A stretch of DNA of 64,000 nucleotides, from NCBI GenBank assembly GCA_937930175.1, contig CALGLP010000022.1, forward strand, positions 161,360 to 225,359, read 5' to 3'. Shown piece after piece: positions 35,191 to 49,888 of this stretch. The translations under genes and the position numbers were made by a program. The notes beneath the pieces were generated by a model, which saw nothing but the letters and a program-made list of their open reading frames with translations, was not told where the DNA came from and made no database searches. Every line of letters starts with the position of its first letter. Position 1 is the first letter of the stretch. Origin of the DNA: an uncultured bacterium (GTDB taxonomy: Bacteria; Omnitrophota; Gorgyraeia; Zapsychrales; Aceulaceae).

Positions 35191-36963
35191 TTATTTTAAG
35201 TATGATTTTCGTGCAATGTAGCTGGTGTGGAGAAGGTGATGGGATTTTTCAGAAAGCGGTTTGCCAAGAAACTCATCGTAAAGTTTCTGGATATAAGGAT
35301 TGTCATGGCAGCAGCGCACTTTCTGGTCACGATCATCTTGATAAAGCCCTTGGGCGCGTTTGATGCGTAAGTCGTCGGTAACTCCGTAGGGTTGTCCGCC
35401 TCCGGCCACGCAACCTCCAGAGCAAGCCATTACTTCAATAAAATGATACGGCATGTCTTGGCCATTCTTTTTAGCCTCAAGAACTTTGTTCATCACGTAA
35501 CCAACATTTCCTAAGCCATGCGCAACCGCTACTTTGACTTGTGTGCCTTTGATGTTGATCGTTCCCTCCTTGACTCCTTGAAGTCCGCGGACCATGTCGA
35601 TCTCAACATTTTTTAAGTTTTCTTGGGTGATCATGTTGTAGGCTGTTCGCAGAGCTGCTTCCATAACGCCGCCCGTGGTCCCGAAGATGGTTCCACCGCC
35701 AGCATAATCTCCTAAGATGTGATCAGGCTCTTCATCGGGTAAATTTTTAAAGTCAATTCCCGCCTGGCGGATCATGCGCGCAAGTTCACGCGTTGTGAGG
35801 GACAAGTCGACATCTTGCTGTCCGGAAGAGAACATTTCTTTGGATCGTATAATCTCGAATTTCTTGGCCGTGCAAGGCATGATCGAGACAACGAAAATAC
35901 GTTTGGGATCAATTTTGTTTTTTTCAGCAAAATATGTCTTAGCAAGGGCTCCGACCATTTCGTGAGGCGATTTACACGAGGAGAAAAATTCAATAGCGCC
36001 GTGGATATACTTTTCCATAAAATCGACCCAGGATGGGCAGCAGCTTGTGATCAAGGGCAAGGGCCCTTTTTTGTGAACAAAGCGTTGAACAAACTCTGTG
36101 GCCTCTTCGATGATGGTAACATCGGCACCAAAGTTTGTATCAAAGACAGCTTTAAAGCCAAGTCGGCGTAGGACAGCGTAAAGTTTTTTGGTTAAATTGG
36201 TTCCAATCGGATAGCCAAAGCTTTCTCCAATAGCGACGCGAACCGCAGGTGCAATCTGTGCAACGCAATAATTGTTTTCATCACGTAGCTTCGCCCATGT
36301 TGATTCGGTTTGGTCGTATTCGAAGATAGCGCCGGTAGGGCAGTGGGCAGAGCATTGGCCGCAGCGAACACACGGCGAGTCTGCTAAATTGATGTTGGCG
36401 GTTTCGAGGTCTCCTGCAGGGGCAATGCGCATATGGATACCGCGTCCTAAGAATCCTAACGCCCAGACATCTTGAATTTGTTGACAGACTTCAACACAAC
36501 GGCCGCATTTGATACATTTGGCAGGTTCCAAGACGATGCTTTTTGTTGAGATATCTTTTGTTTTGTTCTTGATAACTTTCTCAAAAAGTTCTTCTTGGAT
36601 TGCAAAGTCTGCGGTGAGTTTTTGGAGTTCACAATAATAGCTTCGTCCGCACTGAAGACAATCGTTGGGATGGTTGGATAAAATAAGCTCCAGAACGGTT
36701 TTGCGGACTTCAACGATTTCCGGATCATGGGTGATGATCTCCATGCCATCTTCAAGCGTGGTACAGCAAGAACGGAGAAGTTTTTTAGAGCCTTTAATTT
36801 TGACAATACATAGGCCGCACGCCGCTGTGGCGGGAAGGTCCGGATGTTTACAGAGGGTGGGGATTCTGATGTGAGCTTGTTTTGCAGCATCGAGAATGCT
36901 CAAACCCGCTGGGACGCGAACATTTTTATCATTAATTTTAGCTTTGATTGTTTTTGCTTGCAT
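35191..36963 (-). CDS. hydA: [FeFe]-hydrogenase catalytic subunit (HydA/HndD-like, multimeric NAD(P)-linked type)
   Basis: H-cluster motifs TSCCPSW, MPCTAKKFE and EVMACSGGCVAGGGQP. N-terminal 2Fe-2S domain and two 4Fe-4S ferredoxin motifs. Confidence 0.9.
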   Translation of the reverse strand: MQAKTIKAKINDKNVRVPAGLSILDAAKQAHIRIPTLCKHPDLPATAACGLCIVKIKGSKKLLRSCCTTLEDGMEIITHDPEIVEVRKTVLELILSNHPNDCLQCGRSYYCELQKLTADFAIQEELFEKVIKNKTKDISTKSIVLEPAKCIKCGRCVEVCQQIQDVWALGFLGRGIHMRIAPAGDLETANINLADSPCVRCGQCSAHCPTGAIFEYDQTESTWAKLRDENNYCVAQIAPAVRVAIGESFGYPIGTNLTKKLYAVLRRLGFKAVFDTNFGADVTIIEEATEFVQRFVHKKGPLPLITSCCPSWVDFMEKYIHGAIEFFSSCKSPHEMVGALAKTYFAEKNKIDPKRIFVVSIMPCTAKKFEIIRSKEMFSSGQQDVDLSLTTRELARMIRQAGIDFKNLPDEEPDHILGDYAGGGTIFGTTGGVMEAALRTAYNMITQENLKNVEIDMVRGLQGVKEGTINIKGTQVKVAVAHGLGNVGYVMNKVLEAKKNGQDMPYHFIEVMACSGGCVAGGGQPYGVTDDLRIKRAQGLYQDDRDQKVRCCHDNPYIQKLYDEFLGKPLSEKSHHLLHTSYIARKSYLK

Positions 36964-36965
36964 GA

Positions 36966-38762
36966 TTAACCTCGTGTGATCGCTTTAAATTTACATCGTT
37001 CGAAACATAGGCCGCATTTGATACATTTGGTGTGATCAATGAGATAGCCTTTTTCGCGGTCTCCGGAGATGGCTCCCACAGGGCATGCCTTGGCACAAAG
37101 ACCGCATTTAATACATTTTTCTATGAGAATGTCGAATTTGAGTAAATGACTACATTTGTGGGCGCGGCATTTATGATTTTGAATGTGCTCGGTATATTCC
37201 TCTGTAAAATATTTCATCGTTGATAAAACAGGGTTGCTTGCCGTTTGCCCTAGGCCGCATAGCGATGCCTTTTGCATGGCCTGGGATATCCTTGAAAGTT
37301 TATCAAGGTGGTCCATGGATCCATTGCCGTTGGTGATTTTTTCAAGGAGATGAAGCAGCTGATAGCCTCCAATGCGGCAGGGTGCGCATTTGCCACAAGA
37401 TTCATCAACAGAAAATTGTAAATAAAACTTTGTAATGTCCACAATACAATCATCTTCATCCATGACGATCATGCCGCCAGATCCCATCATCGAGCCAATG
37501 GCAATTAGGTTGTCATAATCGATGGGGGTGTCTAAGAATTGCGCGGGGATGACGCCTCCTGAAGGGCCTCCGGTTTGTGCAGCTTTGAATTGTTTGCCAT
37601 CTTTGATCCCGCCACCGATATCAAAGATGATCTCTCGCAGGGTTGTTCCCATGGGGACTTCGATAAGGCCAGAGTTGTTGATTTTTCCTGTTAAGGCAAA
37701 GACCTTTGTGCCTTTTGACTTTTCGGTCCCTATTTTAGCAAACCATGCGGCACCTCTTAAGATGATGACGGGGATGTTGGCCCAGGTCTCAACATTATTG
37801 ATAACAGTTGGTTTACCCCAAAGTCCTTTGACCGCAGGAAAAGGAGGTCGAGGCCGTGGCATGCCACGTTCACCTTCAAGAGAGGCTAAGAGCGCTGTTT
37901 CTTCGCCGCAAACAAAGGCGCCAGCTCCTAATCGGATTTCAATGTCAAAGCTAAAGGAACTTCCTAAGAGATTTTCACCTAAGAGTCCATAATCACGGGC
38001 TTGCGCTATGGCGATGTTGAGTCGCTCGATGGCGAGCGGGTATTCTGCGCGAATATAAATAAAGCCTTTGTTGGCATTAACCGCATAACCGGCAATGGTC
38101 ATTGCTTCGAGGATGGAGTGGGGGTCACCTTCAAGCGTGCTTCTGTCCATATAGGCTCCAGGATCGCCTTCGTCCGCGTTGCAGACAATATATTTGATGT
38201 CGCTAGGAGCTTTTTTTGTGAATGACCATTTCATGCCTGTTGGGAATCCTGCGCCACCGCGTCCGCGTAGGCCTGATTTGGTGACTTCCTCAATGACTTG
38301 GTCAGGGGTCATCTCAAAGAGGACTTTTTCAAGCGCCTTGTAGCCATCGCGGGCAATGTATTCATCGATTTTTTCAGGATCGATCACGCCGCAGTTTCTT
38401 AAGACAATGCGAAATTGTTTTTGATAGAAATCGATATTGGCCACGTCGGTCATAGGGTGGCGGCCTTTGTCGTCTTTGGGGTTGTACAAAAGACGCTTGA
38501 CCATTCGTCCTTTAATAATGTTTTCTTCGATGATCTCGCGAACATCTTCAGGCTTGAGTCGCACATAAAAGGCATTGTCGGGTAAGACTTTAACAATGGG
38601 TCCTTGTTCGCAAAAGCCAAAACAACCTGTTTTAACAACTTGGACATCATTTTCAAGCTGATGGTCTTTGATTTCTTTCATGAAATGATCATGGATTTCG
38701 CGCGAGCGACTTGATTCGCAGGCCGTTCCAGAACAAATAAGAATATAATGTTTATAGGGCAT
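36966..38762 (-). CDS. hydB: NuoF-like NAD(P)H-binding flavoprotein subunit (HydB/HndC)
   Basis: N-terminal thioredoxin-like 2Fe-2S. NuoF FMN/NADH motifs (GRGGAGFPTG, ADEGDPGA). SLBB and C-terminal 2x4Fe-4S (CIKCGLC...). Confidence 0.9.
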   Translation of the reverse strand: MPYKHYILICSGTACESSRSREIHDHFMKEIKDHQLENDVQVVKTGCFGFCEQGPIVKVLPDNAFYVRLKPEDVREIIEENIIKGRMVKRLLYNPKDDKGRHPMTDVANIDFYQKQFRIVLRNCGVIDPEKIDEYIARDGYKALEKVLFEMTPDQVIEEVTKSGLRGRGGAGFPTGMKWSFTKKAPSDIKYIVCNADEGDPGAYMDRSTLEGDPHSILEAMTIAGYAVNANKGFIYIRAEYPLAIERLNIAIAQARDYGLLGENLLGSSFSFDIEIRLGAGAFVCGEETALLASLEGERGMPRPRPPFPAVKGLWGKPTVINNVETWANIPVIILRGAAWFAKIGTEKSKGTKVFALTGKINNSGLIEVPMGTTLREIIFDIGGGIKDGKQFKAAQTGGPSGGVIPAQFLDTPIDYDNLIAIGSMMGSGGMIVMDEDDCIVDITKFYLQFSVDESCGKCAPCRIGGYQLLHLLEKITNGNGSMDHLDKLSRISQAMQKASLCGLGQTASNPVLSTMKYFTEEYTEHIQNHKCRAHKCSHLLKFDILIEKCIKCGLCAKACPVGAISGDREKGYLIDHTKCIKCGLCFERCKFKAITRG

Positions 38763-38772
38763 AAAAACCTCG

Positions 38773-39162
38773 TTAATGTTTTACAATGTCAATAGAAGGT
38801 TTGTCTTGAATATGATCATCGAGTAGCGCTTTGTCGATAATATGTTTCTGGATAATCTTACGCGCAGTATCTTCTGTGACGTTTCCATAGAGAGTCGTTG
38901 GCATGTCGGGCATGAAGATCTCAACGGTCGGCTCAACATTGCAATTGCCCATACAGCCGGTTTGTTTAACCGCAATATTCTTAAGGTTACGTTTGTTGAG
39001 TTCATCGATGAAGGCATTTAAGGTTTTTTTGGCTCCTGCAGCAATTCCGCAAGTTCCCATGCCAACCACGATACGGGTATCTTGTTGGCTATCGCGCTTG
39101 TCCATGTCTATTTTGAGCGATTCGCGCATTTTTCGTAAATCATCAAGAGTAAGTTTGCTCAT
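38773..39162 (-). CDS. Small thioredoxin-like 2Fe-2S ferredoxin subunit (HndB/HydD-like)
   Basis: GMGTCGIAAGA...GCMGNCNVEP cluster-binding pattern. Sits between the ATPase and NuoF-like genes. Confidence 0.7.
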   Translation of the reverse strand: MSKLTLDDLRKMRESLKIDMDKRDSQQDTRIVVGMGTCGIAAGAKKTLNAFIDELNKRNLKNIAVKQTGCMGNCNVEPTVEIFMPDMPTTLYGNVTEDTARKIIQKHIIDKALLDDHIQDKPSIDIVKH

Positions 39163-39171
39163 AGTTATCTC

Positions 39172-39714
39172 CTAGAGATTGATAATGTCTTGTTCTAAGC
39201 TAATGAGATATTTCTGGGCTAGCATTAAGTTGCCAGCGCGAGAGAGATCTCCGAGTGTTTTTTTCAAATCATTACGAACAATAGTATATTTTTGTTCGCC
39301 GTATGATCGGTTGATGACCAATTCATGATTGCCATCAAAGATCATTAACTGCAACATTGTCTGCGGTACGTCGCCAAGCGGGGGAGTATCCACATGGGAT
39401 TTATGAAACGTAAAGGAAACTGATGTTCCAAAATCTTTTTCAGATCGAATATCCCAGGTGCCGCAACCCTGTTCTACGGCTTGCGCTAAGAACGATAATC
39501 CAAGGCCTTGCGTGCGTTTATGTTTTTTGCCATTGGTTATAAAAGGATCTTGCGCCTTGGCTAAGGTTTTGGGATCCATGCCTTTACCATTATCTGCGAC
39601 CAGAAACTTATATTTTTCCTTTGTTTCGATGACATCAACAACAATGAGCGTCGCTTCGGATTCAATAGAGTTTTGAACAATGTCGCTTAAAAAGTCACAG
39701 AGCGTTAAATGCAT
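39172..39714 (-). CDS. Histidine-kinase-like ATPase (HATPase_c only) associated with hydrogenase operon
   Basis: N-box-like IVQNSIES, DNGKGMD, GLGLS G-boxes. No HisKA or receiver domain. Confidence 0.65.
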   Translation of the reverse strand: MHLTLCDFLSDIVQNSIESEATLIVVDVIETKEKYKFLVADNGKGMDPKTLAKAQDPFITNGKKHKRTQGLGLSFLAQAVEQGCGTWDIRSEKDFGTSVSFTFHKSHVDTPPLGDVPQTMLQLMIFDGNHELVINRSYGEQKYTIVRNDLKKTLGDLSRAGNLMLAQKYLISLEQDIINL

Positions 39715-39716
39715 TG

Positions 39717-40189
39717 CTAATACTTAGAAAGAATTTCTGGAAGTTGGCTTTTGAGAAGCTTTCCGTAGACGGTTCCGTTGATGGACATGACGGGAGCGAG
39801 TCCACAGCAGCCTAAGCAGCGTACAGCTTCAACCGAAAATTTTCCATCCGGGGTCATATCATTGAGGCCTACTCCTAAGATGGTTTCAAGCTCTTTGATG
39901 ATGTCTTCGCCGCCCTTAAGATAACAGGCTGTTCCCATGCAAACGGCAATAATGTTTTTTCCTCGTTTTTCTAATTTAAAGTAATGATAAAAAGTAATCA
40001 CGCCATAAATTTTGGCGAGAGGAACATCGAGAACTTCGGCGAGTTTGAAAGCAACATTGCGAGGAATAAAGCCATATTCTTCTTGGGCCTTGTGTAAGAT
40101 CATGATGAGATTGCCGGGCTTGTCTTTCCATTGAGCAATATAATCTAAAAGCCCAGGTGTGAGTTCAAGATTTTTGATCGTTTCCATTT
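39717..40189 (-). CDS. hydC: NuoE-like 2Fe-2S subunit (HydC/HndA)
   Basis: CMGTACYLKGGE...CLGCCGLAPV thioredoxin-like 2Fe-2S motifs. GGAGGA RBS on the minus strand. Start at ATG 40189. Confidence 0.85.
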
Positions 40190-40348
40190 TAAATCCTCCA
40201 GTGAGAAGCTTAAGAATAGGGCAAATTATAAAGGAAAGAGGGGAACTAATCAAGAGAAATCTTTTGTTACTATGAGAACTTTTAATTTGACATATTGATA
40301 TCTTATGTTACTATTGTGACATAAAAATAGAGAAAGGAGAGTGTTATT

Positions 40349-41011
40349 GTGACTGAAAGCAAGGAATTGATATCACGATTGCTCAAATATAAGAATGTTT
40401 TAACAAATTTCAAAAAACTTGGGATGGTCAAGATCTTTTCGGACAATCTTGGGGATGCTACGGGGTTGTCCTCGTCGCAGGTGCGTAAGGATTTTAGCGC
40501 CCTCAAGATCACCGGCAATAAGCGTGGCGGTTATGATGTTGATCATTTGGTTGTGCGGCTTAATCAAATCTTAGTTGGTGACCGTAAGCAGAAGGTGATC
40601 GTGGTCGGTTGTGGCAATATTGGCCGTGCCTTGATTGAATATAACGGATTTCATTGCGAGAGTCTAAAAATCGTTGCGGGGTTTGATATTAGCAAAGGGA
40701 AATGGGATCCTGAGGCTAAGGTGCCGATCTATCCATTAGAAAAAATGGAAGAGTATGTTAAGAAGAATCAGATCAAGGTTGGCGTTGTTGCTGTCCCTGA
40801 GAATGAGGCATCTTCGGTTTGCGACAAGATGATCGCCGCAGGTATTAAGGGTATTTTAAATTTTGCACGTGTTTATATTCGCGAGACCGAAGGGGCTGTG
40901 GTGGATACGGTTAACATTGAGCTCAAGATCGAGAATTTGTTTTATTTCGCCAATGCCCTAACCAAAGAACATGATTATTCTAAGATTAAGAGGCAACTCC
41001 ATGAAGATTGA
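40349..41011 (+). CDS. rex: Redox-sensing transcriptional repressor Rex
   Basis: Winged-helix N-terminus (ISRLLKYKNVL...ATGLSSSQVRKDFS) and Rossmann VIVVGCGNIGRAL. GTG start after AAGGAGAG. Confidence 0.85.
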   Translation: MTESKELISRLLKYKNVLTNFKKLGMVKIFSDNLGDATGLSSSQVRKDFSALKITGNKRGGYDVDHLVVRLNQILVGDRKQKVIVVGCGNIGRALIEYNGFHCESLKIVAGFDISKGKWDPEAKVPIYPLEKMEEYVKKNQIKVGVVAVPENEASSVCDKMIAAGIKGILNFARVYIRETEGAVVDTVNIELKIENLFYFANALTKEHDYSKIKRQLHED

Positions 41012-41342
41012 TCAACTTATCAAAGCATTAGATTGTGAGGTGGTGCACCGCCGCAAAGAAACAGGCGTTAAAGATCTCAAGCATTTTGTTGTTTCGGATC
41101 TTATGAGCGATGTCCTTCTTGTCGATGGCGATGTGGATCTTTTGATCACGTCGTTAGCGACAACGCAGGCGATACGCACCGCTGATATCGTAAGTGCGAT
41201 TGGCGTTATTGTTGTTAATGGCAAGGCGGTAACCGCGGATATGAAAGTTTCTGCCAAAGAGCTTGATGTCACGTTGCTGAAGACAAAGCTATCTTCTTTT
41301 GAGGTTTGCGGCACCATTCATCATCTGAAAGGACAAGAGTGA
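41001..41342 (+). CDS. DRTGG domain protein
   Basis: Small protein with a DRTGG-like core (LLITSLATTQAIRTADIVSAIGVIVVNGK). Confidence 0.55.
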   Translation: MKIDQLIKALDCEVVHRRKETGVKDLKHFVVSDLMSDVLLVDGDVDLLITSLATTQAIRTADIVSAIGVIVVNGKAVTADMKVSAKELDVTLLKTKLSSFEVCGTIHHLKGQE

Positions 41343-42283
41343 TGACGGATAAAGGCATTCCGATCAAGATGGAAGAATCGACATCGTTGATCTTGGACTT
41401 GATCTATCAACTCAAGATTAAAGATGTCATGACTCGCAATCTGGTCATTGCTTCTCCTGAGGATTCCTTGGATCATATTAAGACATTAATGAAGCAAAGA
41501 AATGTTACCGGTATTCCGATTGTGAAGAAAGATCGGCTTTTGGGTATCTTGAGTATTGATGATATTTTTAAGGCTTTAGATAGTGGCTATATGCAAGAGC
41601 TTGCAGAAAAGCATATGTCTAAGAAGCTTGTCATGCTCGAAGAGGACATGCCGCTTGCCTTTGCGATTTCTTATTTTGATAAATTTAAGTATGGTCGTTT
41701 TCCTGTGGTTGATAAAAACAATCTTTTGGTAGGGATGATCACGAGCCGTGATATTAATGTTGGACTTTTGATGGCCATCAACAAAGAAGTTGCGCGCATG
41801 GAAGAACTTTTGGCCCAGACGACTCCTGTTGATGCGCATCATATTCGCAAGATGTTCCGTATCCGTAAGTATGATTTTGAACATGCCGGGAACGCGTCAA
41901 ATCGGATTAAAAAGCTTCTTGTGGAGCGTAAGTTGGATCCCAAAGATATTCGACGTGTTGCGGTCGCGATGTATGAGCTCGAGATTAACATTGCTGTCCA
42001 TTCTGACGGAGGAACATTGACGGTGATCATTGATCAAGATCATGCGGAGATTACTGCCAAGGACTCAGCGCCTGGGATCGAACATCCGGAACTCGCGCTT
42101 CAGGAAGGATATTCAACAGCCAACGAATGGATTAAGTCTTTGGGTTTTGGGGCCGGCATGGGGTTAGCCAATATTCGTCGTGTTTCCGATAGTTTTGATT
42201 TTCAGTCGGCGCTTGGCAAGGGAACGACCGTTCGAGCGGTTATTCATTTTAAACGAAAGGAAGAGAAAAGCCATGACCATTAG
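41342..42283 (+). CDS. CBS-pair + histidine-kinase-like ATPase (anti-sigma-factor-type Ser kinase fold)
   Basis: Two CBS motifs (VMTRNLVIASPED, PVVDKNNLLVGMITSRDI). C-terminal HATPase (GFGAGMGLANI, GKGTTV). Confidence 0.65.
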   Translation: MTDKGIPIKMEESTSLILDLIYQLKIKDVMTRNLVIASPEDSLDHIKTLMKQRNVTGIPIVKKDRLLGILSIDDIFKALDSGYMQELAEKHMSKKLVMLEEDMPLAFAISYFDKFKYGRFPVVDKNNLLVGMITSRDINVGLLMAINKEVARMEELLAQTTPVDAHHIRKMFRIRKYDFEHAGNASNRIKKLLVERKLDPKDIRRVAVAMYELEINIAVHSDGGTLTVIIDQDHAEITAKDSAPGIEHPELALQEGYSTANEWIKSLGFGAGMGLANIRRVSDSFDFQSALGKGTTVRAVIHFKRKEEKSHDH

Positions 42284-42608
42284 TGAGATGACAAAGCTTA
42301 CAGAACTTACGCTTGTGCAGAAGGAATTTGAGGATGGTGTGATTTCCGGAGGATACACATCTGATCTTTTGAGCGATGTGATCGCCAATGCTGAGGCGAA
42401 TAATATCTTGATCACAATCCAAGCGCATATTAACACCGTAGCCGTATCAAAATTGGTTGGGATTCGTGCTATTGTTATTGCTAATCATAGAGAAGTTCCT
42501 ATTGATATGGTGGAAGCGGCTCAAAAAGAAAAGATTGCCCTTTTTTCATCAACGCTTAGCCAGTTCTCCTTGTCTGTCTTGATTGGCAAGCATATCCATA
42601 AACAATGA
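42273..42608 (+). CDS. DRTGG domain protein (second copy)
   Basis: ILITIQAHINTVAVSKLVGIRAIVIANHREVPIDMVEAAQKEKIALF. Start overlaps the preceding stop. Confidence 0.55.
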   Translation: MTISEMTKLTELTLVQKEFEDGVISGGYTSDLLSDVIANAEANNILITIQAHINTVAVSKLVGIRAIVIANHREVPIDMVEAAQKEKIALFSSTLSQFSLSVLIGKHIHKQ

Positions 42609-43327
42609 TGCGCATAAAAGCGGATCTCCATATCCATTCGACAGTTTCACCTTGTGCTACTCTTTTGATGTCGCCGAAGAATATTGTTAGCGTTGCGAAG
42701 GCCAAGGGATTGTCTCTTGTGGCCCTGACCGACCATAATTGTACGCGCAATTGTCCTGCATTTTTTTCGTTGTGCAAACGTGAAAATTTATTTTGCTTGG
42801 GCGGGGCTGAAGTGACAACCGTTGAGGAATGTCATGTCCTTTGCCTTTTTGATAATCTCAAGATTATTATGGAATTTGGCCAGTACGTCGAATCCCGCTT
42901 GCCTGATGTGCCTAATCAAAGAGATCTTTTTGGTGATCAGGTTTATGTCAATGACCAGGAGGAGATCTTAGGTTCTGTGGAAAAGTATCTGGGTAATGCC
43001 ACCAGTATTAGCGTCTCTGAGCTTTGTAGGGCTGTGCATGAGCGAGGTGGTATTATTATTCCTGCGCATGTGGATCGTCCTGTTTTTGGAATGATCGCCC
43101 AATTAGGCTTTATTCCGCAGGAGCCTTTTGACGCCCTTGAGATCTATCGAAATAATAAGAGTGCCGCTATTGGCGCAGAAGAAAAGTATCCTCTTATTTC
43201 TAATTCGGATTCGCATATGCCAGATGAAGTTGGTTGTGTTTATACGGCAATGGAGATGCCGGAGATATCCTTTATCAATTTGAAAGAGGCATTGAAGCGT
43301 GGGGCAGTTTTTATTGAGCGGGGATAG
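42605..43327 (+). CDS. PHP-domain metal-dependent phosphoesterase
   Basis: ADLHIHST...ALTDHN...PAHVDRP His/Asp motifs of the PHP family. Confidence 0.75.
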   Translation: MMRIKADLHIHSTVSPCATLLMSPKNIVSVAKAKGLSLVALTDHNCTRNCPAFFSLCKRENLFCLGGAEVTTVEECHVLCLFDNLKIIMEFGQYVESRLPDVPNQRDLFGDQVYVNDQEEILGSVEKYLGNATSISVSELCRAVHERGGIIIPAHVDRPVFGMIAQLGFIPQEPFDALEIYRNNKSAAIGAEEKYPLISNSDSHMPDEVGCVYTAMEMPEISFINLKEALKRGAVFIERG

Positions 43328-43565: not shown

Positions 43566-44129
43566 GTGAAGCAAATAAGCCAAGGTTTGTCAAAAGATCA
43601 GCCTGTTGGTTCCTGTTGTTGTGGTGAGTTCTCCGAACCAGAAATGTTAAAACGTCTCGATGAGATTATTGATACGTATAAGTCTGCGGATGGGGCCTTG
43701 ATCCCGATCTTGCAAACAGCTCAAAATTTATTTGGATATCTTCCGAAAAATATTTTGCGTCGGATTGGCGAACGATTGCGGATCCCGTATAGTCAAGTCG
43801 CTGGCGTTGTGTCGTTTTATTCTTTTTTCTCAACAAATCCTCGGGGTAAGAATTTAGTGCGTGTGTGTCTGGGAACCGCGTGCTATGTGCGTGGAGGCAA
43901 GGAGGTTTTGTCAACGATGCAAAAAACCCTTGGCATTAATGTTGGTGAAACAACAGCTGATAAAATGTTTTCGCTGGAGGTTGGGCGTTGTTTTGGTGCC
44001 TGTGGTTTGGCGCCTGTTGTGATGATCAACGAGGATGTTCATCAGCGGGTTAAGCCAGCAAAGATAAAAGAACTTCTAAGCTTTTATCGTGAGGCAAAGT
44101 CACAGACACAGGAGGCCGCCGCATGTTAA
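43566..44129 (+). CDS. hydC: NuoE-like 2Fe-2S subunit (HydC/HndA), second locus
   Basis: CLGTACYVRGG...CFGACGLAPV. Confidence 0.85.
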   Translation: MKQISQGLSKDQPVGSCCCGEFSEPEMLKRLDEIIDTYKSADGALIPILQTAQNLFGYLPKNILRRIGERLRIPYSQVAGVVSFYSFFSTNPRGKNLVRVCLGTACYVRGGKEVLSTMQKTLGINVGETTADKMFSLEVGRCFGACGLAPVVMINEDVHQRVKPAKIKELLSFYREAKSQTQEAAAC

Positions 44130-47100
44130 CTGACAAGATTTTATCCTTGAAAGATTTAAATCGTATCAAAGATGCTGCGGTTGCGGAAAAGGTCAAACGT
44201 AGTATTTATAAAGAGGTTTTGATCTGTGCTGGGGGAGGATGTATTGCTAGCGGTTCGCTGCAGATTAAGAAACGCTTGGAAGAGAAGATTGAGAAGAATG
44301 GAGTTGTCATCGATATTGTCGAGACAGGATGTTTAGGTCCTTGCGCTAAGGGGCCTGTGATGGTCGTAAACCCTGGGCATGTCTTTTATGAGAATGTTAC
44401 CCTTGATGATGTTGATCAAATTTTTGAGGAACATCTTTTTAAGGGGAAAATTGTTGAGCGGCTTTTGCATCGCAATTTTGAAACGAATAAACCTGTTTCT
44501 GACATCAAGGATGTTGATTTTTTTAAACGACAAACAAAAATTGTTTTGCGGAATTGCGGAACGATCGATCCTCAGAATATTGTTGATTATATTCGCGTGG
44601 ATGGATATCAGGCTTTGGCCAAGGCTTTGACGATGATGTCGGCTGATCAGATTATTGATGAGGTTAAAAAGTCAGGGCTCCGCGGCCGTGGAGGAGCAGG
44701 GTTTTCTACTGGAATGAAATGGGAATTTACACGTAAAGCGCCCGGCAGTGTTAAATACGCGATTTGCAACGCGGATGAAGGAGATCCTGGGGCTTTCATG
44801 AATCGAAGCGTTCTTGAGGGAGATCCTCATAGCGTGATCGAAGGGATGATGATCGCGGGTTTTGCGATTGGGGCTAAACAAGGATTTGTTTATGTGCGGG
44901 CGGAGTATCCGTTGGCGGTTTCACGATTGATGAAGGCGATCGAGCAGGCTCGGGCGTGTGGCCTTTTAGGAAAAAATATTCTTGGAACGGATTTTTCATT
45001 TGATTTGGATATCCGCATGGGTTCTGGGGCGTTTGTGTGCGGAGAAGAAACTGCTTTGATGGCATCATTGGAGGGAAAGCGTGGAGAGCCGCGTCCGCGT
45101 CCACCTTTTCCAGCTATTAAAGGACTTTGGGGTAAGCCGAGCTTGCTCAATAACGTTGAGACATATGTTAATGTGCCGATCATTCTCCTTAAAGGGGCCG
45201 ATTGGTTTGCGTCGATGGGAACGGAAAAAAGCAAGGGAACCAAGGTGTTTGCCTTAGCAGGGGCTGTGAACAATACAGGGCTTGTGGAGGTTCCTATTGG
45301 GACGTCGCTTGGGGAGTTAATTTATGATATTGGCGGTGGGATCAAAAATGGAAAAGAATTTAAGGCCGCTCAAATTGGAGGGCCCTCGGGAGGCTGTATC
45401 CCTAAGCAACATCTTAATGTTCCATTGGACTACGACACGCTTGTTGAGTTGGGCGCTATCATGGGATCAGGCGGGCTCATTGTGATGGATGATGATTCGT
45501 GTATTGTGGATGTGGCGCGTTTTTTTCTTGAATTTGTGCAAGATGAATCGTGCGGAAAATGTGTGCCGTGTCGTGTTGGGTCAAAACGGATGCTTGAGAT
45601 CCTTGAGAAAATTTGTAAAGGAGAAGGTAAACCAGAGCATATTAAGAAATTGCTTGAATTGGGTGAAGGAATAAAAGATGCTTCGCTTTGTGGGTTAGGC
45701 TATACCTCGGCTAATCCTGTGCGTTCAACCTTGCGTCATTTTCCTAAAGAATATGAAGAGCATATTCGTGATAAACATTGTGAGGCTGGGGTTTGCCCTG
45801 ATCTCGTGCGGGCCCCGTGCCAGAGCGCTTGCCCAGCCGGTGTTGACATTCCAGGTTTTATTGCTTTAACAGGGGAAGAACGCTACGCGGAAGCGCTCAA
45901 GCTTCATCGTGAACGCAATCCTTTTGCGGCTGTGTGCGCAAGAGTTTGTTTTCACACTTGCGAGGATAAATGTCGCCGCGCTACGCTCGATACATCGGTT
46001 TCGATTCGTGGGATCAAGCGTTTTATGGTGGACCAAGAGATTGTCGTCCAAATCCCGGAGATTCATCATAACGAGGCAAATGCTAAGAGAAAGATCGCGA
46101 TTGTTGGGGCGGGGCCTGCCGGACTGTCTTGTGCGTATTTTCTTGCGCGCTTAGGTTATCGTCCTACGGTTTTTGAGAAAGAAATGCGTCCTGGAGGGAT
46201 GCTTGTTCAAACTATTCCTGCGTATCGTTTGCCACGAGAAACCTTAGCCCGTGAAATCCGCATGATTGAGCAGCTTGGTGTTGAAATTGAAACCGGAAAG
46301 GCGCTGGGACGTGATTTTACGATTGATTCGTTAAAGAAGCATGGTTATGAGGCGATCTTTATTGCCGTAGGAGCTCCGGAAAGTGTGCGCCTTGGGCTTG
46401 ACGGCGAAGCCTCGGGAGGGGTTGTTGATGCCCTTGATTTTTTAAGAACTTATAATATCAGGGGATCTGTTCCTGTGGGTAAGAAAGTTGTTGTTGTAGG
46501 AGGTGGGAATGCCGCGATTGATGCCTCGCGGAGCGCGTTGCGTTTAGGGGCCCAAGAAGTGACGGTTGTTTATCGTCGTAGTCAAAATGAAATGCCAGCG
46601 TACGCGGAAGAAGTGGACGAGGCTTTGCATGAAGGTGTCAAGATCTTGCCTTTAACTCACCCTATCGAGATCAAAAAGGATAAGGATGGGAAAGTCTGTG
46701 GATTAAAGTGTATTCACATGAAGCTTGGGGATTTTGATCAGACAGGGCGACGACGCCCAACCGCGAACGCGGAAGATGTTTTCGATATGGAAACGGATCA
46801 AGTGATTGTTGCGATTGGACAGAAAATGGATGTTAAAAAGCTTCTTGATGGGGTAACGATGAAGCTTTCAGAGAGAAATTTTATTTATGCGGATCCGGTT
46901 TTAGGAAAAACTTCGGTGGAGGGAATTTTTGCCGGAGGGGATGCCACGACGGGTCCTTCCTCAGTTGTGATGGCGATTTCTTCAGGAGAACATGCGGCAG
47001 TTGGGATTGATCAATATTTGACCGGAGAAGAACATGCATTTTGGCGTGTGCAGAAAGCTGTTAAGGTTGATTTTGATCCCGATGCGGACCCTGCTCCATA

Positions 47101-47260
47101 TCCGCGAGATCCGTTGCGATTGATTGATGTGGCGCGTCGCAAACATAATTTTGATGAAGTTGAACAATCGTGGAATGAAGGCGTAGCTAGGCGGCAAGCC
47201 AAGCGATGTTTGCGCTGCGATTATGGAAAATGTTTAGATGAGAAAGGGGGTAAGGCGTAA
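44123..47260 (+). CDS. hydB: NuoF-like flavoprotein subunit (HydB) fused to a C-terminal GltD/NfnB-like NAD(P)H:FAD oxidoreductase domain
   Basis: The N-terminal 600 aa are collinear with the first-locus HydB (GRGGAGFSTG, ADEGDPGA, 4Fe-4S motifs). The C-terminal 440 aa carry the GltD-type Cys motifs, IVGAGPAGL and a second VVVGGGNAA dinucleotide fold. Confidence 0.85.
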   Translation: MLTDKILSLKDLNRIKDAAVAEKVKRSIYKEVLICAGGGCIASGSLQIKKRLEEKIEKNGVVIDIVETGCLGPCAKGPVMVVNPGHVFYENVTLDDVDQIFEEHLFKGKIVERLLHRNFETNKPVSDIKDVDFFKRQTKIVLRNCGTIDPQNIVDYIRVDGYQALAKALTMMSADQIIDEVKKSGLRGRGGAGFSTGMKWEFTRKAPGSVKYAICNADEGDPGAFMNRSVLEGDPHSVIEGMMIAGFAIGAKQGFVYVRAEYPLAVSRLMKAIEQARACGLLGKNILGTDFSFDLDIRMGSGAFVCGEETALMASLEGKRGEPRPRPPFPAIKGLWGKPSLLNNVETYVNVPIILLKGADWFASMGTEKSKGTKVFALAGAVNNTGLVEVPIGTSLGELIYDIGGGIKNGKEFKAAQIGGPSGGCIPKQHLNVPLDYDTLVELGAIMGSGGLIVMDDDSCIVDVARFFLEFVQDESCGKCVPCRVGSKRMLEILEKICKGEGKPEHIKKLLELGEGIKDASLCGLGYTSANPVRSTLRHFPKEYEEHIRDKHCEAGVCPDLVRAPCQSACPAGVDIPGFIALTGEERYAEALKLHRERNPFAAVCARVCFHTCEDKCRRATLDTSVSIRGIKRFMVDQEIVVQIPEIHHNEANAKRKIAIVGAGPAGLSCAYFLARLGYRPTVFEKEMRPGGMLVQTIPAYRLPRETLAREIRMIEQLGVEIETGKALGRDFTIDSLKKHGYEAIFIAVGAPESVRLGLDGEASGGVVDALDFLRTYNIRGSVPVGKKVVVVGGGNAAIDASRSALRLGAQEVTVVYRRSQNEMPAYAEEVDEALHEGVKILPLTHPIEIKKDKDGKVCGLKCIHMKLGDFDQTGRRRPTANAEDVFDMETDQVIVAIGQKMDVKKLLDGVTMKLSERNFIYADPVLGKTSVEGIFAGGDATTGPSSVVMAISSGEHAAVGIDQYLTGEEHAFWRVQKAVKVDFDPDADPAPYPRDPLRLIDVARRKHNFDEVEQSWNEGVARRQAKRCLRCDYGKCLDEKGGKA

Positions 47261-49038
47261 TGGTGAAGTTAACAATTGATCGTAACATGGTCGAAGTTCC
47301 CCCTGAGATGACGATTTTGCAGGCCGCGCGACAAATGGGCATTATTATTCCTACGTTGTGTTATCTAGAAGGTAAGGATCCTATTGGTGCCTGTCGGGTG
47401 TGCGTTGTTGAGGTGCAAGGTGGTCGTAATTTGGTATCATCTTGTTCAACGCCTGTTGCGGAAGGCATGGTTGTTTTTACCAATAGCCCCCGTGTTCGTA
47501 GAGCTCGTAAATTAGTTGTTGAGCTTCTTTTGAGTGAGCATGAAGGAGATTGTCAAATTTGTGACCGCAGTGAGGATTGCGAATTAAAATCCTTGGCTTA
47601 TAGCTTAGGAATTCGCGAGCCGCATTATGAGGGTGAAAAGCCAGAAAGGTTTTTGGATGTAAGTTCTTCCGCGCTTGTTCGAGATTCTGGCAAGTGCATA
47701 AAATGTCGTCGCTGTGTTACGGTTTGCAACGAAATTCAACACGTGGGAGCCCTTTTTCCTCAGAATCGTGGATATAAAACATTGATCGGACCTGCGTTTG
47801 CTCTAGGCCTTGAAGATGTACCTTGCGTTCAATGTGGGCAGTGTGCAGCGGTTTGTCCTGTGGGCGCGATCATTGAGAAAAGCCATGTGGATATGGTTTG
47901 GGCAGCGCTTGAGGACAAGACTAAACATGTCGTTGTGCAAACCGCTCCCGCGATTCGTGCGGCGCTAGGGGAGTGTTTTGATTATCCACCAGGAACTCTT
48001 GTGACAGGAAAAATGATCACCGCGCTTCGTCTTATGGGATTTGATGCGGTTTTTGATACTAATTTTGCGGCGGATTTGACGATCATGGAAGAAGGCACAG
48101 AGCTTTTGTTGCGTCTTAAAAAGGCGCTCGTTGAAAAACAACCCGTGGCCTTGCCTCAATTTTCAAGTTGTTCGCCGGGATGGATCAAGTTTACCGAATA
48201 TTTTTATCCAGAGTTTCTGCCGAATCTATCTTCTTGTAAGTCACCGCAACAAATGTTTGGCGCGATCGCGAAGACGTTTTATGCGCAAAAGAAGGGCTTG
48301 CGTCCTGAAGATATTGTTGTTGTGTCGGTTATGCCGTGTACGGCGAAAAAGTTTGAATCCAGCCGTCCTGAGATGAATAGTAGCGGCGTCAGAGACGTGG
48401 ATTATGTTTTGACAACACGCGAATTAGGTCAGATGATCACGGCGGCCGGTATTCATTTTACAGCGTTAGAAGACGGACAGACGGATTCGCCTCTTGGGCT
48501 TTCGTCGGGTGCCGCGGATATTTTTGCTAATAGCGGTGGGGTTATGGAGGCGGCTATCCGTACGGCTTACGAGATCGTGACAGGTCGTGAGCTTCCACTT
48601 GTAAATCTTCATGTTGAACCTTTGGCAGGGCTAAAGGGAATTAAAGAAGCAGCCCTTAAGCTTGAGCAGGTTCTTCCGGCGTGGTCTTTTTTAGAAGGTG
48701 TTGAATTAAAAGTCGCCGTCGCGCATAGCTTATCCAATGCCGCGGCCTTGCTTGATCTCATCAAGGCGGGTCAGGCCCATTATCATTTTGTTGAGGTCAT
48801 GACATGTCCTGGGGGATGTATTGGTGGAGGAGGCCAGCCGCGATTTACAACTGATGAAGTCCGTCGGGCGCGCATCAATGCGATCTACAAGGAAGACGAA
48901 GGCAAGGCAATGCGCAAATCCCATGACAATCCGGACGTAAAAAAGCTCTATGCAGAGTTTTTGACTGATGGCCCTTGTGGTCATCAAAGCCATAAGCTTT
49001 TGCATACGCATTATGTTGACCGTGGGGATAAAATTTGA
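47260..49038 (+). CDS. hydA: [FeFe]-hydrogenase catalytic subunit, second locus, with variant L1 motif
   Basis: MPCTAKKFE and EVMTCPGGCIGGGGQP are conserved. L1 reads FSSCSPGW instead of TSCCPxW. N-terminal 2Fe-2S plus ferredoxin domains. ATG overlaps the hydB stop. Confidence 0.9.
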   Translation: MVKLTIDRNMVEVPPEMTILQAARQMGIIIPTLCYLEGKDPIGACRVCVVEVQGGRNLVSSCSTPVAEGMVVFTNSPRVRRARKLVVELLLSEHEGDCQICDRSEDCELKSLAYSLGIREPHYEGEKPERFLDVSSSALVRDSGKCIKCRRCVTVCNEIQHVGALFPQNRGYKTLIGPAFALGLEDVPCVQCGQCAAVCPVGAIIEKSHVDMVWAALEDKTKHVVVQTAPAIRAALGECFDYPPGTLVTGKMITALRLMGFDAVFDTNFAADLTIMEEGTELLLRLKKALVEKQPVALPQFSSCSPGWIKFTEYFYPEFLPNLSSCKSPQQMFGAIAKTFYAQKKGLRPEDIVVVSVMPCTAKKFESSRPEMNSSGVRDVDYVLTTRELGQMITAAGIHFTALEDGQTDSPLGLSSGAADIFANSGGVMEAAIRTAYEIVTGRELPLVNLHVEPLAGLKGIKEAALKLEQVLPAWSFLEGVELKVAVAHSLSNAAALLDLIKAGQAHYHFVEVMTCPGGCIGGGGQPRFTTDEVRRARINAIYKEDEGKAMRKSHDNPDVKKLYAEFLTDGPCGHQSHKLLHTHYVDRGDKI

Positions 49039-49097: not shown

Positions 49098-49442
49098 ATG
49101 GCATATGATCCAAAAGCGATTCTAAAGAATTTTAATAAATGCATGACCGATATCCGCAAGGCTGTGCCGTCGGAATATGACGCATTTATGCAAGAAAAAG
49201 AGATTATTTTAAAGTCAAATCGTCTTCCTGAGAAAACAAAATGGTTGTTATTGTTGGTTTCGAGCGTAAGTCAAAAATGTCCTGTTTGTTTGACGCGCGC
49301 GGTGACGCACTGTCTCAAGCAGGGATGGACAAAAAAGGAAATGCTTGAAGCGTGTATGGTCGCGGTTTTGGTTGGTGGCGCAAGCACTATGACCTATGTG
49401 ACGATGGTTGATCAGGCGATTGATGAGTTGACGAAAGGCTAA
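49098..49442 (+). CDS. Carboxymuconolactone decarboxylase / AhpD-like family protein
   Basis: CPVCLTRAVTHC (CxxC...H) core typical of the AhpD-like fold. RBS AGGAGG. Confidence 0.6.
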   Translation: MAYDPKAILKNFNKCMTDIRKAVPSEYDAFMQEKEIILKSNRLPEKTKWLLLLVSSVSQKCPVCLTRAVTHCLKQGWTKKEMLEACMVAVLVGGASTMTYVTMVDQAIDELTKG

Positions 49443-49567
49443 GAAATATTTGGTGCTCTTTCTGATAGCATAATTCGTTACATTGACCTACGGACAAGGG
49501 GCGTCAAAGCCCTGTGGCTAAGGGATCAACTCGCAGCAAATATTTGTTGGTGAGTTGTGTTTTTTAG

Positions 49568-49610
49568 AATCCCGGGTTTCCGTTAACAGGCAATCCGGGA
49601 TTTTTATTTT
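49568..49610 (+). terminator. Intrinsic terminator/attenuator ending 18 nt before the hydrogenase-maturation operon start
   Basis: AATCCCGG...CCGGGATT stem with a 19-nt loop followed by TTTTTATTTT. RBS GGAG and ATG 49629 follow. Confidence 0.55.
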
Positions 49611-49628
49611 ATTGATAGGAGAAATATA

Positions 49629-49877
49629 ATGAAAAATCGTTTAGGTTTTATTGGGATTATTATTCATGATCGGGATAAGAGTGCTGAAAAGGTTAATCAT
49701 ATTTTGCATCAGCACGCCAAAATGTTCGTCGGGCGCATGGGTATTCCGTACAAGGAAAAGAATGTGGGTGTTATTACCTTGATTGTCGATGCGGATACGG
49801 ATGACATTGGCGCCCTTACGGGCCGACTTGGCGAGATTGAAGGTGTTTCTGTTAAATCAGCGTTAGTTAAAGAATAG
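49629..49877 (+). CDS. Putative iron-only hydrogenase system regulator (TM1266-like small ACT-type protein)
   Basis: About 80-aa protein at the head of a hydEFG cluster. Sequence and context match the TM1266-like family. Confidence 0.6.
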   Translation: MKNRLGFIGIIIHDRDKSAEKVNHILHQHAKMFVGRMGIPYKEKNVGVITLIVDADTDDIGALTGRLGEIEGVSVKSALVKE

Positions 49878-49888
49878 AAAAGGTACAA

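What the first reader, a model, noticed from the sequence alone, without database searches (positions are those of the whole stretch)
48163..48186. Second HydA carries FSSCSPGW in place of the canonical TSCCPxW H-cluster L1 motif
- In prototypical [FeFe]-hydrogenases the two adjacent Cys of TSCCPxW serve as the proton-relay Cys and as a ligand to the [4Fe-4S] subcluster.
- Here the codons TCA AGT TGT TCG CCG encode S-S-C-S-P, so one of the two Cys is replaced by Ser.
- The L2 and L3 motifs are intact.
- The paralogue at 35191-36963 has the normal TSCCPSW.
- Taken together, this is a candidate sensory/regulatory or catalytically altered hydrogenase, or a Ser-ligated variant.
- It could also be a sequencing artefact, since TCG vs TGC is a dinucleotide swap.
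Basis: seen in the sequence. Interest (0 to 1): 0.7.

Follow-up and report, generated by a model that had tools for sequence, protein, structure and literature searches.

The report
Natural serine-ligated [FeFe]-hydrogenase H-cluster variant
The second hydrogenase gene really does have a serine where one iron-sulfur-binding cysteine normally sits, but this is a conserved, widespread natural variant already seen in the active Acetobacterium woodii enzyme, so it is neither an error nor a sign of a sensory or crippled enzyme.

Summary
ORF 47260-49038 (+) encodes a 592-aa M3-type HydA whose L1 motif reads F301-S-S-C304-S305-P-G-W308. This lies at 48160-48183, so the given coordinates are 3 nt off.

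Ungapped alignments to solved HydA structures place Cys304 on the proton-relay Cys (CpI C299). They place Ser305 on the [4Fe-4S]H ligand Cys (CpI C300). L2, L3 and the proton-pathway residues are intact.

It is not an artefact:
- The identical 1779-nt gene, TCG included, occurs in four other assemblies.
- 117 of the 120 closest homologue clusters carry SCSPGW.
- Across 75 genomes from many phyla the Ser is encoded by all six Ser codons.

It is also not new:
- A. woodii HydA1 (PDB 7Q4V) has TSCSPGW. Katsyv et al. 2023 report Ser301 replacing this cluster ligand, with normal FTIR signatures and activity.
- A 2024 Hydrogenedentota study notes that Ser is common at this position in BfuA.
- The engineered CrHydA1 C170S variant is active.

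The surrounding operon is NuoE-like HydC, a NuoF-GltD fused HydB, then HydA, with HydFGE downstream. This matches the published "sub-type I BfuABC".

Verdict: a functional Ser-ligated catalytic hydrogenase and a new member of a known kind, of low interest. The sensory reading is not supported.

The parts
48160..48183 (+). L1/P1 H-cluster motif FSSCSPGW (F301-W308) of HydA2
   Evidence: Direct reading and translation. Aligned without gaps to TSCCPGW of CpI, TSCCPSW of T. kivui HydA1 and TSCSPGW of A. woodii HydA1.
48172..48174 (+). Ser305 codon TCG, at the position of the [4Fe-4S]H ligand Cys (CpI C300, T. kivui C299, A. woodii Ser301)
   Evidence: Identical in four other assemblies. All six Ser codons are used at this site across 75 related loci.
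48169..48171 (+). Cys304 codon TGT, the retained proton-relay Cys (CpI C299 position)
   Evidence: Alignment to CpI. Invariant in alignment A1.
48331..48357 (+). L2 motif MPCTAKKFE (C360 is a [4Fe-4S]H ligand)
48793..48840 (+). L3 motif EVMTCPGGCIGGGGQP (C516 and C520; one of them bridges to the [2Fe] subsite)
47260..49038 (+). hydA2 (bfuA), an M3-type [FeFe]-hydrogenase catalytic subunit of 592 aa
   Evidence: Pfam Fer2_4, NADH-G_4Fe-4S_3, Fer4, Fe_hyd_lg_C and Fe_hyd_SSU. NCBIfam NF040763 at 863 bits. PDB 8a6t_A E=8e-179 and 7q4v_A E=2e-172.
44123..47260 (+). hydB2 (bfuB), 1045 aa. It comprises a thioredoxin-like 2Fe-2S domain, the NuoF FMN core and a GltD-like module (DPD_II 2x[4Fe-4S] plus FAD/NAD(P)) in place of the usual C-terminal B3/B4 ferredoxin domain. 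Its stop overlaps the hydA2 start.
   Evidence: It matches the "sub-type I BfuB" described in PMC11406978.
43566..44129 (+). hydC2 (bfuC), a NuoE-like [2Fe-2S] subunit. It overlaps the hydB2 start.
   Evidence: NCBIfam NuoE/HoxE models.
51270..55016 (+). H-cluster maturases: hydF (51270-52523), hydG (52527-54017) and hydE (54024-55016)
   Evidence: TIGR03918 527 bits, TIGR03955 476 bits and TIGR03956 362 bits, all above their cutoffs.
35191..36963 (-). Paralogue hydA1 with canonical TSCCPSW, in a separate Hnd-like cluster (35191-40253)

Best explanation
HydA2 is a functional catalytic [FeFe]-hydrogenase subunit of a HydABC/BfuABC-type complex. It belongs to a large natural lineage in which the [4Fe-4S]H ligand at the second Cys of TSCCPxW is Ser (TSCSPGW type).

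Shown by sequence: Cys304 keeps the proton-relay role position next to the [2Fe] subsite. Cys360, Cys516 and Cys520 supply the other three ligand positions.

Inferred by homology to the A. woodii HydA1 cryo-EM structure: Ser305 O-gamma takes the fourth coordination position of the cubane.

The enzyme is expected to assemble a normal H-cluster with the adjacent HydEFG and to turn over H2. Any effect of the O-ligand would be a modest tuning of cluster potential, maturation kinetics or catalytic bias, not a loss of catalysis or a switch to sensing. That last step is inference.
For: - Ungapped alignment puts S305 on CpI C300 / T. kivui C299 / A. woodii S301, and C304 on CpI C299.
- A. woodii HydA1 (7q4v_A, E=1.8e-172) reads LPMITSCSPGWIKF against the window's LPQFSSCSPGWIKF.
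- Katsyv et al. 2023 state that in A. woodii HydABC this cluster ligand is replaced by Ser301. They report no apparent influence on the FTIR signature and similar activity (PMC10021017).
- The engineered CrHydA1 C170S keeps the [4Fe-4S] cluster, accepts the [2Fe] subsite and is the most active ligand variant (PMC5855289).
- The proton pathway is conserved: E278, E281, R285 and S324 (mapped). L2 and L3 are conserved.
- 117 of the 120 nearest homologue clusters have SCSPGW. So do 26 of the best 150 50%-identity representatives.
- All six Ser codons occur at this site in 75 loci from Omnitrophota, Planctomycetota, Verrucomicrobiota, Spirochaetota, Bacteroidota, Bacillota, Syntrophia, Armatimonadota and Melainabacteria.
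- The DNA is identical in four other assemblies.
- The gene sits in a translationally coupled hydC-hydB-hydA operon, with hydF, hydG and hydE downstream.
- PMC11406978 reports Ser as common at this P1 position in four of five BfuA sub-types.
Against: - No experiment exists on this protein. Direct O-Fe ligation is inferred from one cryo-EM structure of a roughly 50%-identical homologue.
- CrHydA1 C170S matured slowly and had reduced activity (0.2-32% of wild type across variants). A Ser ligand is therefore not automatically neutral.
- Close relatives co-vary at C239 and T515. This leaves room for a slightly different local arrangement than in A. woodii, which has E and A at those positions.
Confidence: 0.85

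Rival explanations
1. Sequencing or assembly artefact: the true codon is TGC/TGT (Cys) and TCG is a dinucleotide error.
For: TCG and TGC differ by a swap of two adjacent bases. Raw reads could not be inspected here.
Against: The identical 1779-nt gene, with TCG, was recovered by at least three different assembly pipelines or records. 117 of 120 homologue clusters have Ser. All six Ser codons, including AGY, are used at the site in 75 loci. The nearest genome uses TCA. TCG is a common Ser codon in this operon, 31 of 150.
Confidence: 0.01
2. Sensory/regulatory (HydS-like) or catalytically dead hydrogenase paralogue that has lost a cluster ligand.
For: It is the second HydA in the window. Regulatory genes (Rex, a CBS-HATPase protein) lie just upstream. 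The canonical L1 motif is broken.
Against: No PAS or other sensor domain is present; the architecture is the M3 catalytic one. The group A models score above their cutoffs. The proton-relay Cys and the E278/E281/R285/S324 pathway are conserved. It is co-transcribed with NuoE/NuoF-type electron-transfer subunits. The A. woodii enzyme with the same motif is a fully active bidirectional bifurcating hydrogenase.
Confidence: 0.04
3. Ser305 is not the fourth ligand. Another residue (for example the clade-enriched Cys239) or solvent completes the cubane, or the cluster is three-coordinate by protein with Ser only hydrogen-bonding.
For: Cys239 is present in 40 of 54 SCSP sequences sampled but in only 6 of 78 SCCP sequences. 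CrHydA1 C170A still holds about 60% [4Fe-4S], showing that the site tolerates a missing ligand.
Against: The sample of 54 SCSP sequences is dominated by close relatives, so the C239 association is largely phylogenetic. A. woodii HydA1 has Glu at that position and still uses Ser301. 14 of 54 SCSP sequences lack Cys239. C170A cannot accept the [2Fe] subsite whereas C170S can, which argues that the hydroxyl is functionally needed. Ser is under strict purifying selection.
Confidence: 0.08

Closest known systems
[quoted passage not shown] 2023, PMC10021017)
   Same: M3-type HydA with the same L1 variant (TSCSPGWIKF). Ser301 occupies the [4Fe-4S]H ligand position. L2, L3 and the proton-relay Cys are intact, and it has NuoE/NuoF-type partners. 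Match E=1.8e-172 over residues 10-586.
   Different: The motif begins with Ser instead of Thr here (FSSCSPGW). HydA2 has two insertions, at about residues 289-296 and 468-480. The partner HydB carries a GltD-like NAD(P)/FAD module instead of the C-terminal 2x[4Fe-4S] ferredoxin domain. This protein has not been characterised.
"Sub-type I BfuABC" [FeFe]-hydrogenases described in silico in Hydrogenedentota and related phyla (PMC11406978)
   Same: BfuB has the B3/B4 domain replaced by DPD_II plus a C-terminal FAD/NAD(P)-binding domain. BfuA is of the M3a type, with Ser common at the fifth P1 position. There is no BfuD subunit. Relatives occur in Spirochaetota, Planctomycetota and Verrucomicrobiota (compare).
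   Different: The host lineage differs: the nearest genome is an Omnitrophota MAG. Membership rests on domain architecture only. I did not place the window proteins in that paper's tree.
Canonical group A HydA: Clostridium pasteurianum CpI, Thermoanaerobacter kivui HydA1 (8A6T), Thermotoga maritima HydA (7P5H)
   Same: Same fold and domain order, same L2 and L3 motifs and proton pathway. T. kivui HydA1 is the best PDB match (E=7.8e-179).
   Different: These have TSCCPxW with an all-Cys [4Fe-4S]H.
Engineered Chlamydomonas reinhardtii HydA1 C170S (Kertess et al. 2017, PMC5855289)
   Same: The same ligand position changed from Cys to Ser. The cluster and [2Fe] subsite still assemble and the enzyme is active.
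   Different: It is an artificial point mutant in an M1 enzyme. It matures slowly, has lowered activity and is biased toward H2 evolution. The natural lineage has presumably adapted its second sphere.
Cys-to-Ser or Cys-to-Ala changes at the FIRST Cys (proton relay), as in group B (CpIII-type) and sensory group C/D hydrogenases (from my own knowledge of the field; not tested here)
   Same: Also a one-residue departure from TSCCP.
   Different: A different residue is affected. Those lose the proton-relay Cys (TSSCP-type; examples such as P0234 LITSSCPAW appear). The window keeps that Cys and loses the cluster ligand.

Membership tests
[FeFe]-hydrogenase group A catalytic subunit (HydA, M3 architecture) | H-domain (Fe_hyd_lg_C plus small-subunit domain) preceded by an F-domain with 2Fe-2S and 4Fe-4S clusters | tested here: met
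   Pfam PF02906 310 bits, PF02256, PF13510, PF10588 and Fer4. TIGR02512 510 bits vs cutoff 406, and NF040763 863 vs 765.
[FeFe]-hydrogenase group A catalytic subunit (HydA, M3 architecture) | Canonical L1 motif TSCCPxW with both Cys | tested here: not met
   The motif is FSSCSPGW: the second Cys is Ser305. The relaxed BfuA P1 consensus xTSCxPxWx used in PMC11406978 is met apart from the conservative Thr-to-Ser change at its T position (S302).
[FeFe]-hydrogenase group A catalytic subunit (HydA, M3 architecture) | L2 (MPCxxKxxE) and L3 (ExMxCxxGCxxGGGQP) motifs | tested here: met
   VMPCTAKKFE and EVMTCPGGCIGGGGQP. These residues are invariant in A1.
[FeFe]-hydrogenase group A catalytic subunit (HydA, M3 architecture) | Proton-transfer pathway residues (CpI C299, E279, S319, E282, R286) | tested here: met
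   C304, E278, S324, E281 and R285, by ungapped alignment to CpI. Invariant or nearly invariant in A1.
[FeFe]-hydrogenase group A catalytic subunit (HydA, M3 architecture) | HydE, HydF and HydG maturases available | tested here: met
   TIGR03918, TIGR03955 and TIGR03956 all score above cutoff at 51270-55016.
Natural Ser-ligated H-cluster HydA (A. woodii HydA1 type) | Ser at the position aligned without gaps to A. woodii Ser301, with the other three ligand Cys present | tested here: met
   alignment (LPMITSCSPGWIKF vs LPQFSSCSPGWIKF). C360, C516 and C520 are present.
Natural Ser-ligated H-cluster HydA (A. woodii HydA1 type) | Ser O-gamma actually coordinates an Fe of [4Fe-4S]H; the enzyme is active | not testable with these tools
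   This needs a structure, spectroscopy or assays. It is reported for A. woodii only.
Sub-type I BfuABC hydrogenase (PMC11406978) | BfuB with the B3/B4 ferredoxin domain replaced by DPD_II plus a C-terminal FAD/NAD(P)-binding domain | tested here: met
   PF14691 at 550-639 directly after PF10589 at 463-547, then Pyr_redox_2 at 657-955, with no Fer4 dicluster domain. The GltD part matches 9bov_A, 9n5u_A and 8oh5_C.
Sub-type I BfuABC hydrogenase (PMC11406978) | NuoE-like BfuC and M3a BfuA in one gene cluster | tested here: met
   Order is hydC (43566-44129), hydB (44123-47260), hydA (47260-49038), with overlapping stops and starts.
Sub-type I BfuABC hydrogenase (PMC11406978) | Phylogenetic placement within that paper's sub-type I clade | not tested
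   The paper's sequences were not retrieved. There is only indirect support: relatives with the same fused HydB in Planctomycetota, Verrucomicrobiota and Spirochaetota.
Sensory [FeFe]-hydrogenase (HydS, groups C/D) | C-terminal PAS or other signalling domain | tested here: not met
   No such domain in the Pfam scan; the protein ends with Fe_hyd_SSU at 532-588.
Sensory [FeFe]-hydrogenase (HydS, groups C/D) | Loss of the proton-relay Cys and proton-pathway residues (a feature known to me from the literature) | tested here: not met
   C304, E278, E281, R285 and S324 are all conserved.

The most novel reading that the evidence does not exclude
The Cys/Ser choice at the [4Fe-4S]H ligand may be an adaptive dial rather than a neutral polymorphism. 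Lineages appear to have switched between TSCCP and TSCSP repeatedly; for example, SCCP revertants sit among SCSP relatives that share the same NuoF-GltD HydB. Such switching could tune the cubane potential, maturation or catalytic bias of Bfu-type hydrogenases.

In this operon the Ser form is paired with a HydB whose ferredoxin-reducing domain is replaced by an NADP(H)/FAD module. That complex could couple H2 to both NAD and NADP, or hold a second bifurcating flavin. No such activity has been shown biochemically.
Probability: 0.2. Interest if true: 0.55.

Novelty: new member of a known kind. Interest (0 to 1): 0.22.

Why it matters
For annotation, TSCSPGW should not be read as a broken or sensory H-cluster motif. 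It marks a large, cross-phylum set of catalytic HydA/BfuA proteins, and motif-based filters that demand TSCCP would wrongly discard them.

For enzymology, the value is modest. A natural O-ligated [4Fe-4S]H is already documented in A. woodii. The breadth and strict conservation seen here would justify a systematic Ser/Cys swap study. The uncharacterised NuoF-GltD partner is the more open question in this operon.

Tried and rejected
- **Artefact hypothesis: rejected.** Identical DNA in four other assemblies and six-codon conservation.
- **Register-shift hypothesis: rejected.** The nearest alignment gap lies upstream of the invariant P299, and the motif holds only one Cys.
- **Sensory HydS reading: rejected.** Domain content and a conserved proton pathway argue against it.
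- **Single monophyletic "Ser clade": not upheld.** A rough NJ tree of 147 H-domains, with the motif columns excluded, needs about 19 state changes at this column. It shows SCCP sequences nested among SCSP ones and the reverse. The tree is approximate, so I claim only "several switches".
- **Obligatory co-varying residues: none found.** C239, T515 and the two insertions track the close-relative clade but are absent from A. woodii HydA1, so they are phylogenetic rather than compensatory.
- **Link between Ser and HydB type: none.** SCSP occurs with NuoF-GltD fusions, with conventional HydB and with short NuoF-like partners.
- **Literature searches.** "TSCSP" gave one relevant hit, Melainabacteria. 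The search "Bfu + GltD + NuoF + hydrogenase" gave nothing. The Schut 2022 Bfu paper does not mention GltD.
- **Structure prediction: not run.** The tool returns no coordinates, so it could not test ligand geometry.
Full report
**Observation**

The window at 48160-48183 reads TTT TCA AGT TGT TCG CCG GGA TGG. This translates to F301 S302 S303 C304 S305 P306 G307 W308 in the frame of ORF 47260..49038 (+), which is 592 aa. The finding's coordinates (48163-48186) are shifted by one codon and cover SSCSPGWI. The Ser codon at issue is TCG at 48172-48174.

L2 (VMPCTAKKFE, C360) and L3 (EVMTCPGGCIGGGGQP, C516 and C520) are intact. The paralogue on the minus strand (35191..36963) has LITSCCPSW and is 45% identical. 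A tblastn of HydA2 against the window finds only these two HydA genes.

**Which cysteine is lost**

A phmmer search against all PDB chains gives full-length matches to T. kivui HydA1 (8a6t_A, E=7.8e-179), A. woodii HydA1 (7q4v_A, E=1.8e-172) and C. pasteurianum CpI (E about 1e-136). In all three alignments the stretch from the invariant Pro before the motif through L2 is ungapped. The nearest gap, six residues, lies upstream of P299.

Counting along the CpI row puts C304 on CpI C299, the proton-relay Cys, and S305 on CpI C300, the [4Fe-4S]H ligand. The other proton-pathway residues map to E278, E281, R285 and S324. These are invariant or nearly invariant in a 27-sequence alignment of relatives. 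The ligand Cys is therefore the one replaced. No register shift can restore two cysteines, because the motif contains only one.

**Not an artefact**

- The exact protein is in the public collection on several contigs.
- Four of those contigs were retrieved: NCBI GCA_036722365.1, ENA ERZ724082 and ERZ724083, and a Logan assembly of SRR3330211. All carry a gene identical to the window over all 1779 nt, including TCG. I cannot tell whether all of them derive from independent read sets, but they come from different assembly pipelines.
- Of the 120 best homologue clusters (69-91% identity, 90%-identity clusters), 117 have [TS]SCSPGW and 23 have the S-S-C-S-P form (FSSCSPGW 22, LSSCSPGW 1).
- Among the best 150 representatives of 50%-identity clusters, 26 carry SCSP and 98 carry SCCP.
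- A scan of one genome per GTDB species returned more than 600 matching stretches. The best 80 span Omnitrophota, Planctomycetota, Verrucomicrobiota, Spirochaetota, Bacteroidota, Bacillota (including Thermoanaerobacter thermocopriae and Desulfotruncus alcoholivorax), Syntrophus/Smithella, Armatimonadota, Ignavibacteria-type lineages and a Melainabacteria-type MAG. One of the two search patterns was the SCSP motif itself, so the proportion in this set is biased. The codon usage within it is not.
- In the 75 loci with Ser, the codons are TCG 21, TCT 16, AGC 15, TCA 13, AGT 7 and TCC 3. Use of both the TCN and AGY codon families is the signature of long-term selection for serine.
- The closest genome (Omnitrophota MAG JBAYLJ010000180, 91% amino-acid identity) uses TCA where the window uses TCG.

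**Already described**

- The A. woodii HydA1 chain in the PDB reads LPMITSCSPGWIKF. Katsyv et al. [quoted passage not shown] - Di Rienzi et al. 2013 (PMC3787301) noted TSCSPGW in Melainabacteria confurcating hydrogenases.
- A 2024 survey of Hydrogenedentota (PMC11406978) writes the BfuA P1 motif as xTSCxPxWx. It reports that Ser is common at the fifth position in four of five sub-types, and that the functional effect is unknown for lack of biochemistry.
- Kertess et al. 2017 (PMC5855289) made the equivalent CrHydA1 C170S mutant. It keeps the [4Fe-4S] cluster, accepts the [2Fe] subsite slowly, is the most active of the ligand variants and is biased toward H2 evolution, whereas C170A cannot be matured.

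**Context**

HydA2 is the last gene of a translationally coupled hydC-hydB-hydA operon.

- The first gene is a NuoE-like protein (43566-44129).
- The second is a 1045-aa HydB (44123-47260).
- The third is HydA2 itself (47260-49038).

HydB2 has the thioredoxin-like 2Fe-2S domain, the Nuo51 FMN domain, SLBB and NADH_4Fe-4S. These are followed directly by a DPD_II two-cluster domain and a pyridine-nucleotide/FAD oxidoreductase domain. It has no C-terminal ferredoxin-type dicluster domain.

The NuoF part is most similar to bifurcating HydB subunits (7t2r_B, 7q4v_B). It keeps the GGPSG motif that Losey et al. associate with bifurcating beta subunits (sequence). The GltD-like part is most similar to the NADPH-binding domains of the Stn and Nfn-Bfu transhydrogenases (9bov_A, 9n5u_A, 8oh5_C).

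This is the architecture PMC11406978 calls sub-type I BfuB. That paper postulates, without data, a second possible bifurcating flavin.

Downstream lie a CMD-family protein, a TM1266-family ACT protein, an aspartate-ammonia-lyase homologue, and then HydF, HydG and HydE, all above the NCBIfam cutoffs. Upstream lie Rex, a CBS-HATPase protein and a PHP-domain protein. On the opposite strand is a second, Hnd-like hydrogenase cluster with the canonical HydA1.

**Distribution of the character**

Ser at this site is not tied to one partner type. In the 80 genome loci it occurs next to NuoF-GltD fusions (about 30 loci), next to conventional HydB (Clostridia, Thermoanaerobacter) and next to short NuoF-like proteins (Bacteroidales). 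Four loci with the NuoF-GltD HydB have reverted to, or retained, TSCCP (L010, L011, L014, L039).

A neighbour-joining tree of 147 H-domains, built without the motif columns, needs about 19 changes at this column. It shows Cys forms nested in Ser clades and the reverse. The tree is crude, so I conclude only that the exchange happened several times.

Positions that differ most between the Ser and Cys sets are C239, T515 and two insertions at about 289-296 and 468-480. These follow the close-relative clade and are absent from A. woodii HydA1. They are therefore not obligatory compensations.

**Interpretation**

The best-supported reading is a functional catalytic HydA whose cubane is ligated by three Cys and Ser305, as in A. 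woodii HydA1.

- Shown: the residue identity, its homology to the A. woodii Ser ligand, the conservation, the intact remainder of the catalytic machinery, and the operon and maturases.
- Inferred: actual O-Fe coordination and activity in this protein, and any tuning of potential or bias.

The sensory, inactive and artefact readings are not supported. A minor rival, that another residue or solvent is the fourth ligand, cannot be excluded without a structure. It is disfavoured by the strict selection for Ser and by the C170A versus C170S contrast.

**Novelty and score**

The variant, its structural basis in one enzyme and even the fused HydB architecture are in the literature. This gene is one more uncharacterised member. 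Interest is low (0.22).

What remains open, and is only lightly touched in the literature, is why Ser is so widely and strictly maintained. The reaction catalysed by the NuoF-GltD type complex is also unknown.

Noticed in passing
window 44123-47260 (+): HydB2 is a 1045-aa fusion of a bifurcating-type NuoF/HydB core with a GltD/NfnB-like module (DPD_II 2x[4Fe-4S] plus FAD/NAD(P)), which replaces the usual ferredoxin-type B3/B4 domain. The GltD part is most similar to the NADPH domains of the Stn and Nfn-Bfu transhydrogenases. The same architecture is "sub-type I BfuB" in PMC11406978, and it was seen in about 30 of 80 related genome loci. Its substrate coupling (NAD, NADP or Fd) is biochemically unknown.
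   Followed up: partly
window 48124-48147 and 48661-48699 (+), HydA2 residues ~289-296 and ~468-480: Two insertions relative to all solved HydA structures (T. kivui, A. woodii, CpI). They are shared by the close-relative clade and may be contact surfaces for the fused HydB module, but this is unexplained.
   Followed up: partly
window 47974-47976 (Cys239) and 48802-48804 (Thr515): Cys239 (CpI L240 position) and Thr515 (just before the L3 ligand Cys516; Ala in most HydA) are enriched in SCSP-type relatives. A. woodii HydA1 has Glu and Ala at these positions, so the association looks phylogenetic rather than compensatory.
   Followed up: partly
window 35191-40253 (-): A second, Hnd-like hydrogenase cluster. 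It comprises a NuoE-like protein (39717-40253), a small HATPase_c protein (39172-39714), a thioredoxin-like 2Fe-2S protein (38773-39162), a conventional HydB with a C-terminal 2x[4Fe-4S] domain (36966-38762) and the canonical TSCCPSW HydA1 (35191-36963).
   Followed up: partly
window 40349-43327 (+): A regulatory-looking block between the two hydrogenase clusters. It holds Rex (40349-41011), a CBS-pair plus HATPase_c protein (41306-42283), a PHP-domain protein (42605-43327) and two small ORFs (40971-41342, 42180-42608) with no Pfam hit.
   Followed up: no
window 49098-51286 (+): Between hydA2 and hydF lie a CMD-family (peroxidase-like) protein, a TM1266-family putative hydrogenase regulator and an aspartate-ammonia-lyase homologue that overlaps the hydF start. 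All three lie immediately upstream of hydFGE; the first two are also found downstream of hydA2 in other assemblies.
   Followed up: no
loci L010, L011, L014, L039 (match regions): These HydA genes sit next to the same NuoF-GltD fused HydB but carry canonical TSCCP (TGT/TGC). This shows that the Cys and Ser states interconvert within one operon type.
   Followed up: partly
proteins P0234, P0235, P0248, P0266, P0181: A few more distant representatives have Ser at the first Cys (TSSCP-type, loss of the proton relay). This is a different substitution from the one in the window.
   Followed up: no
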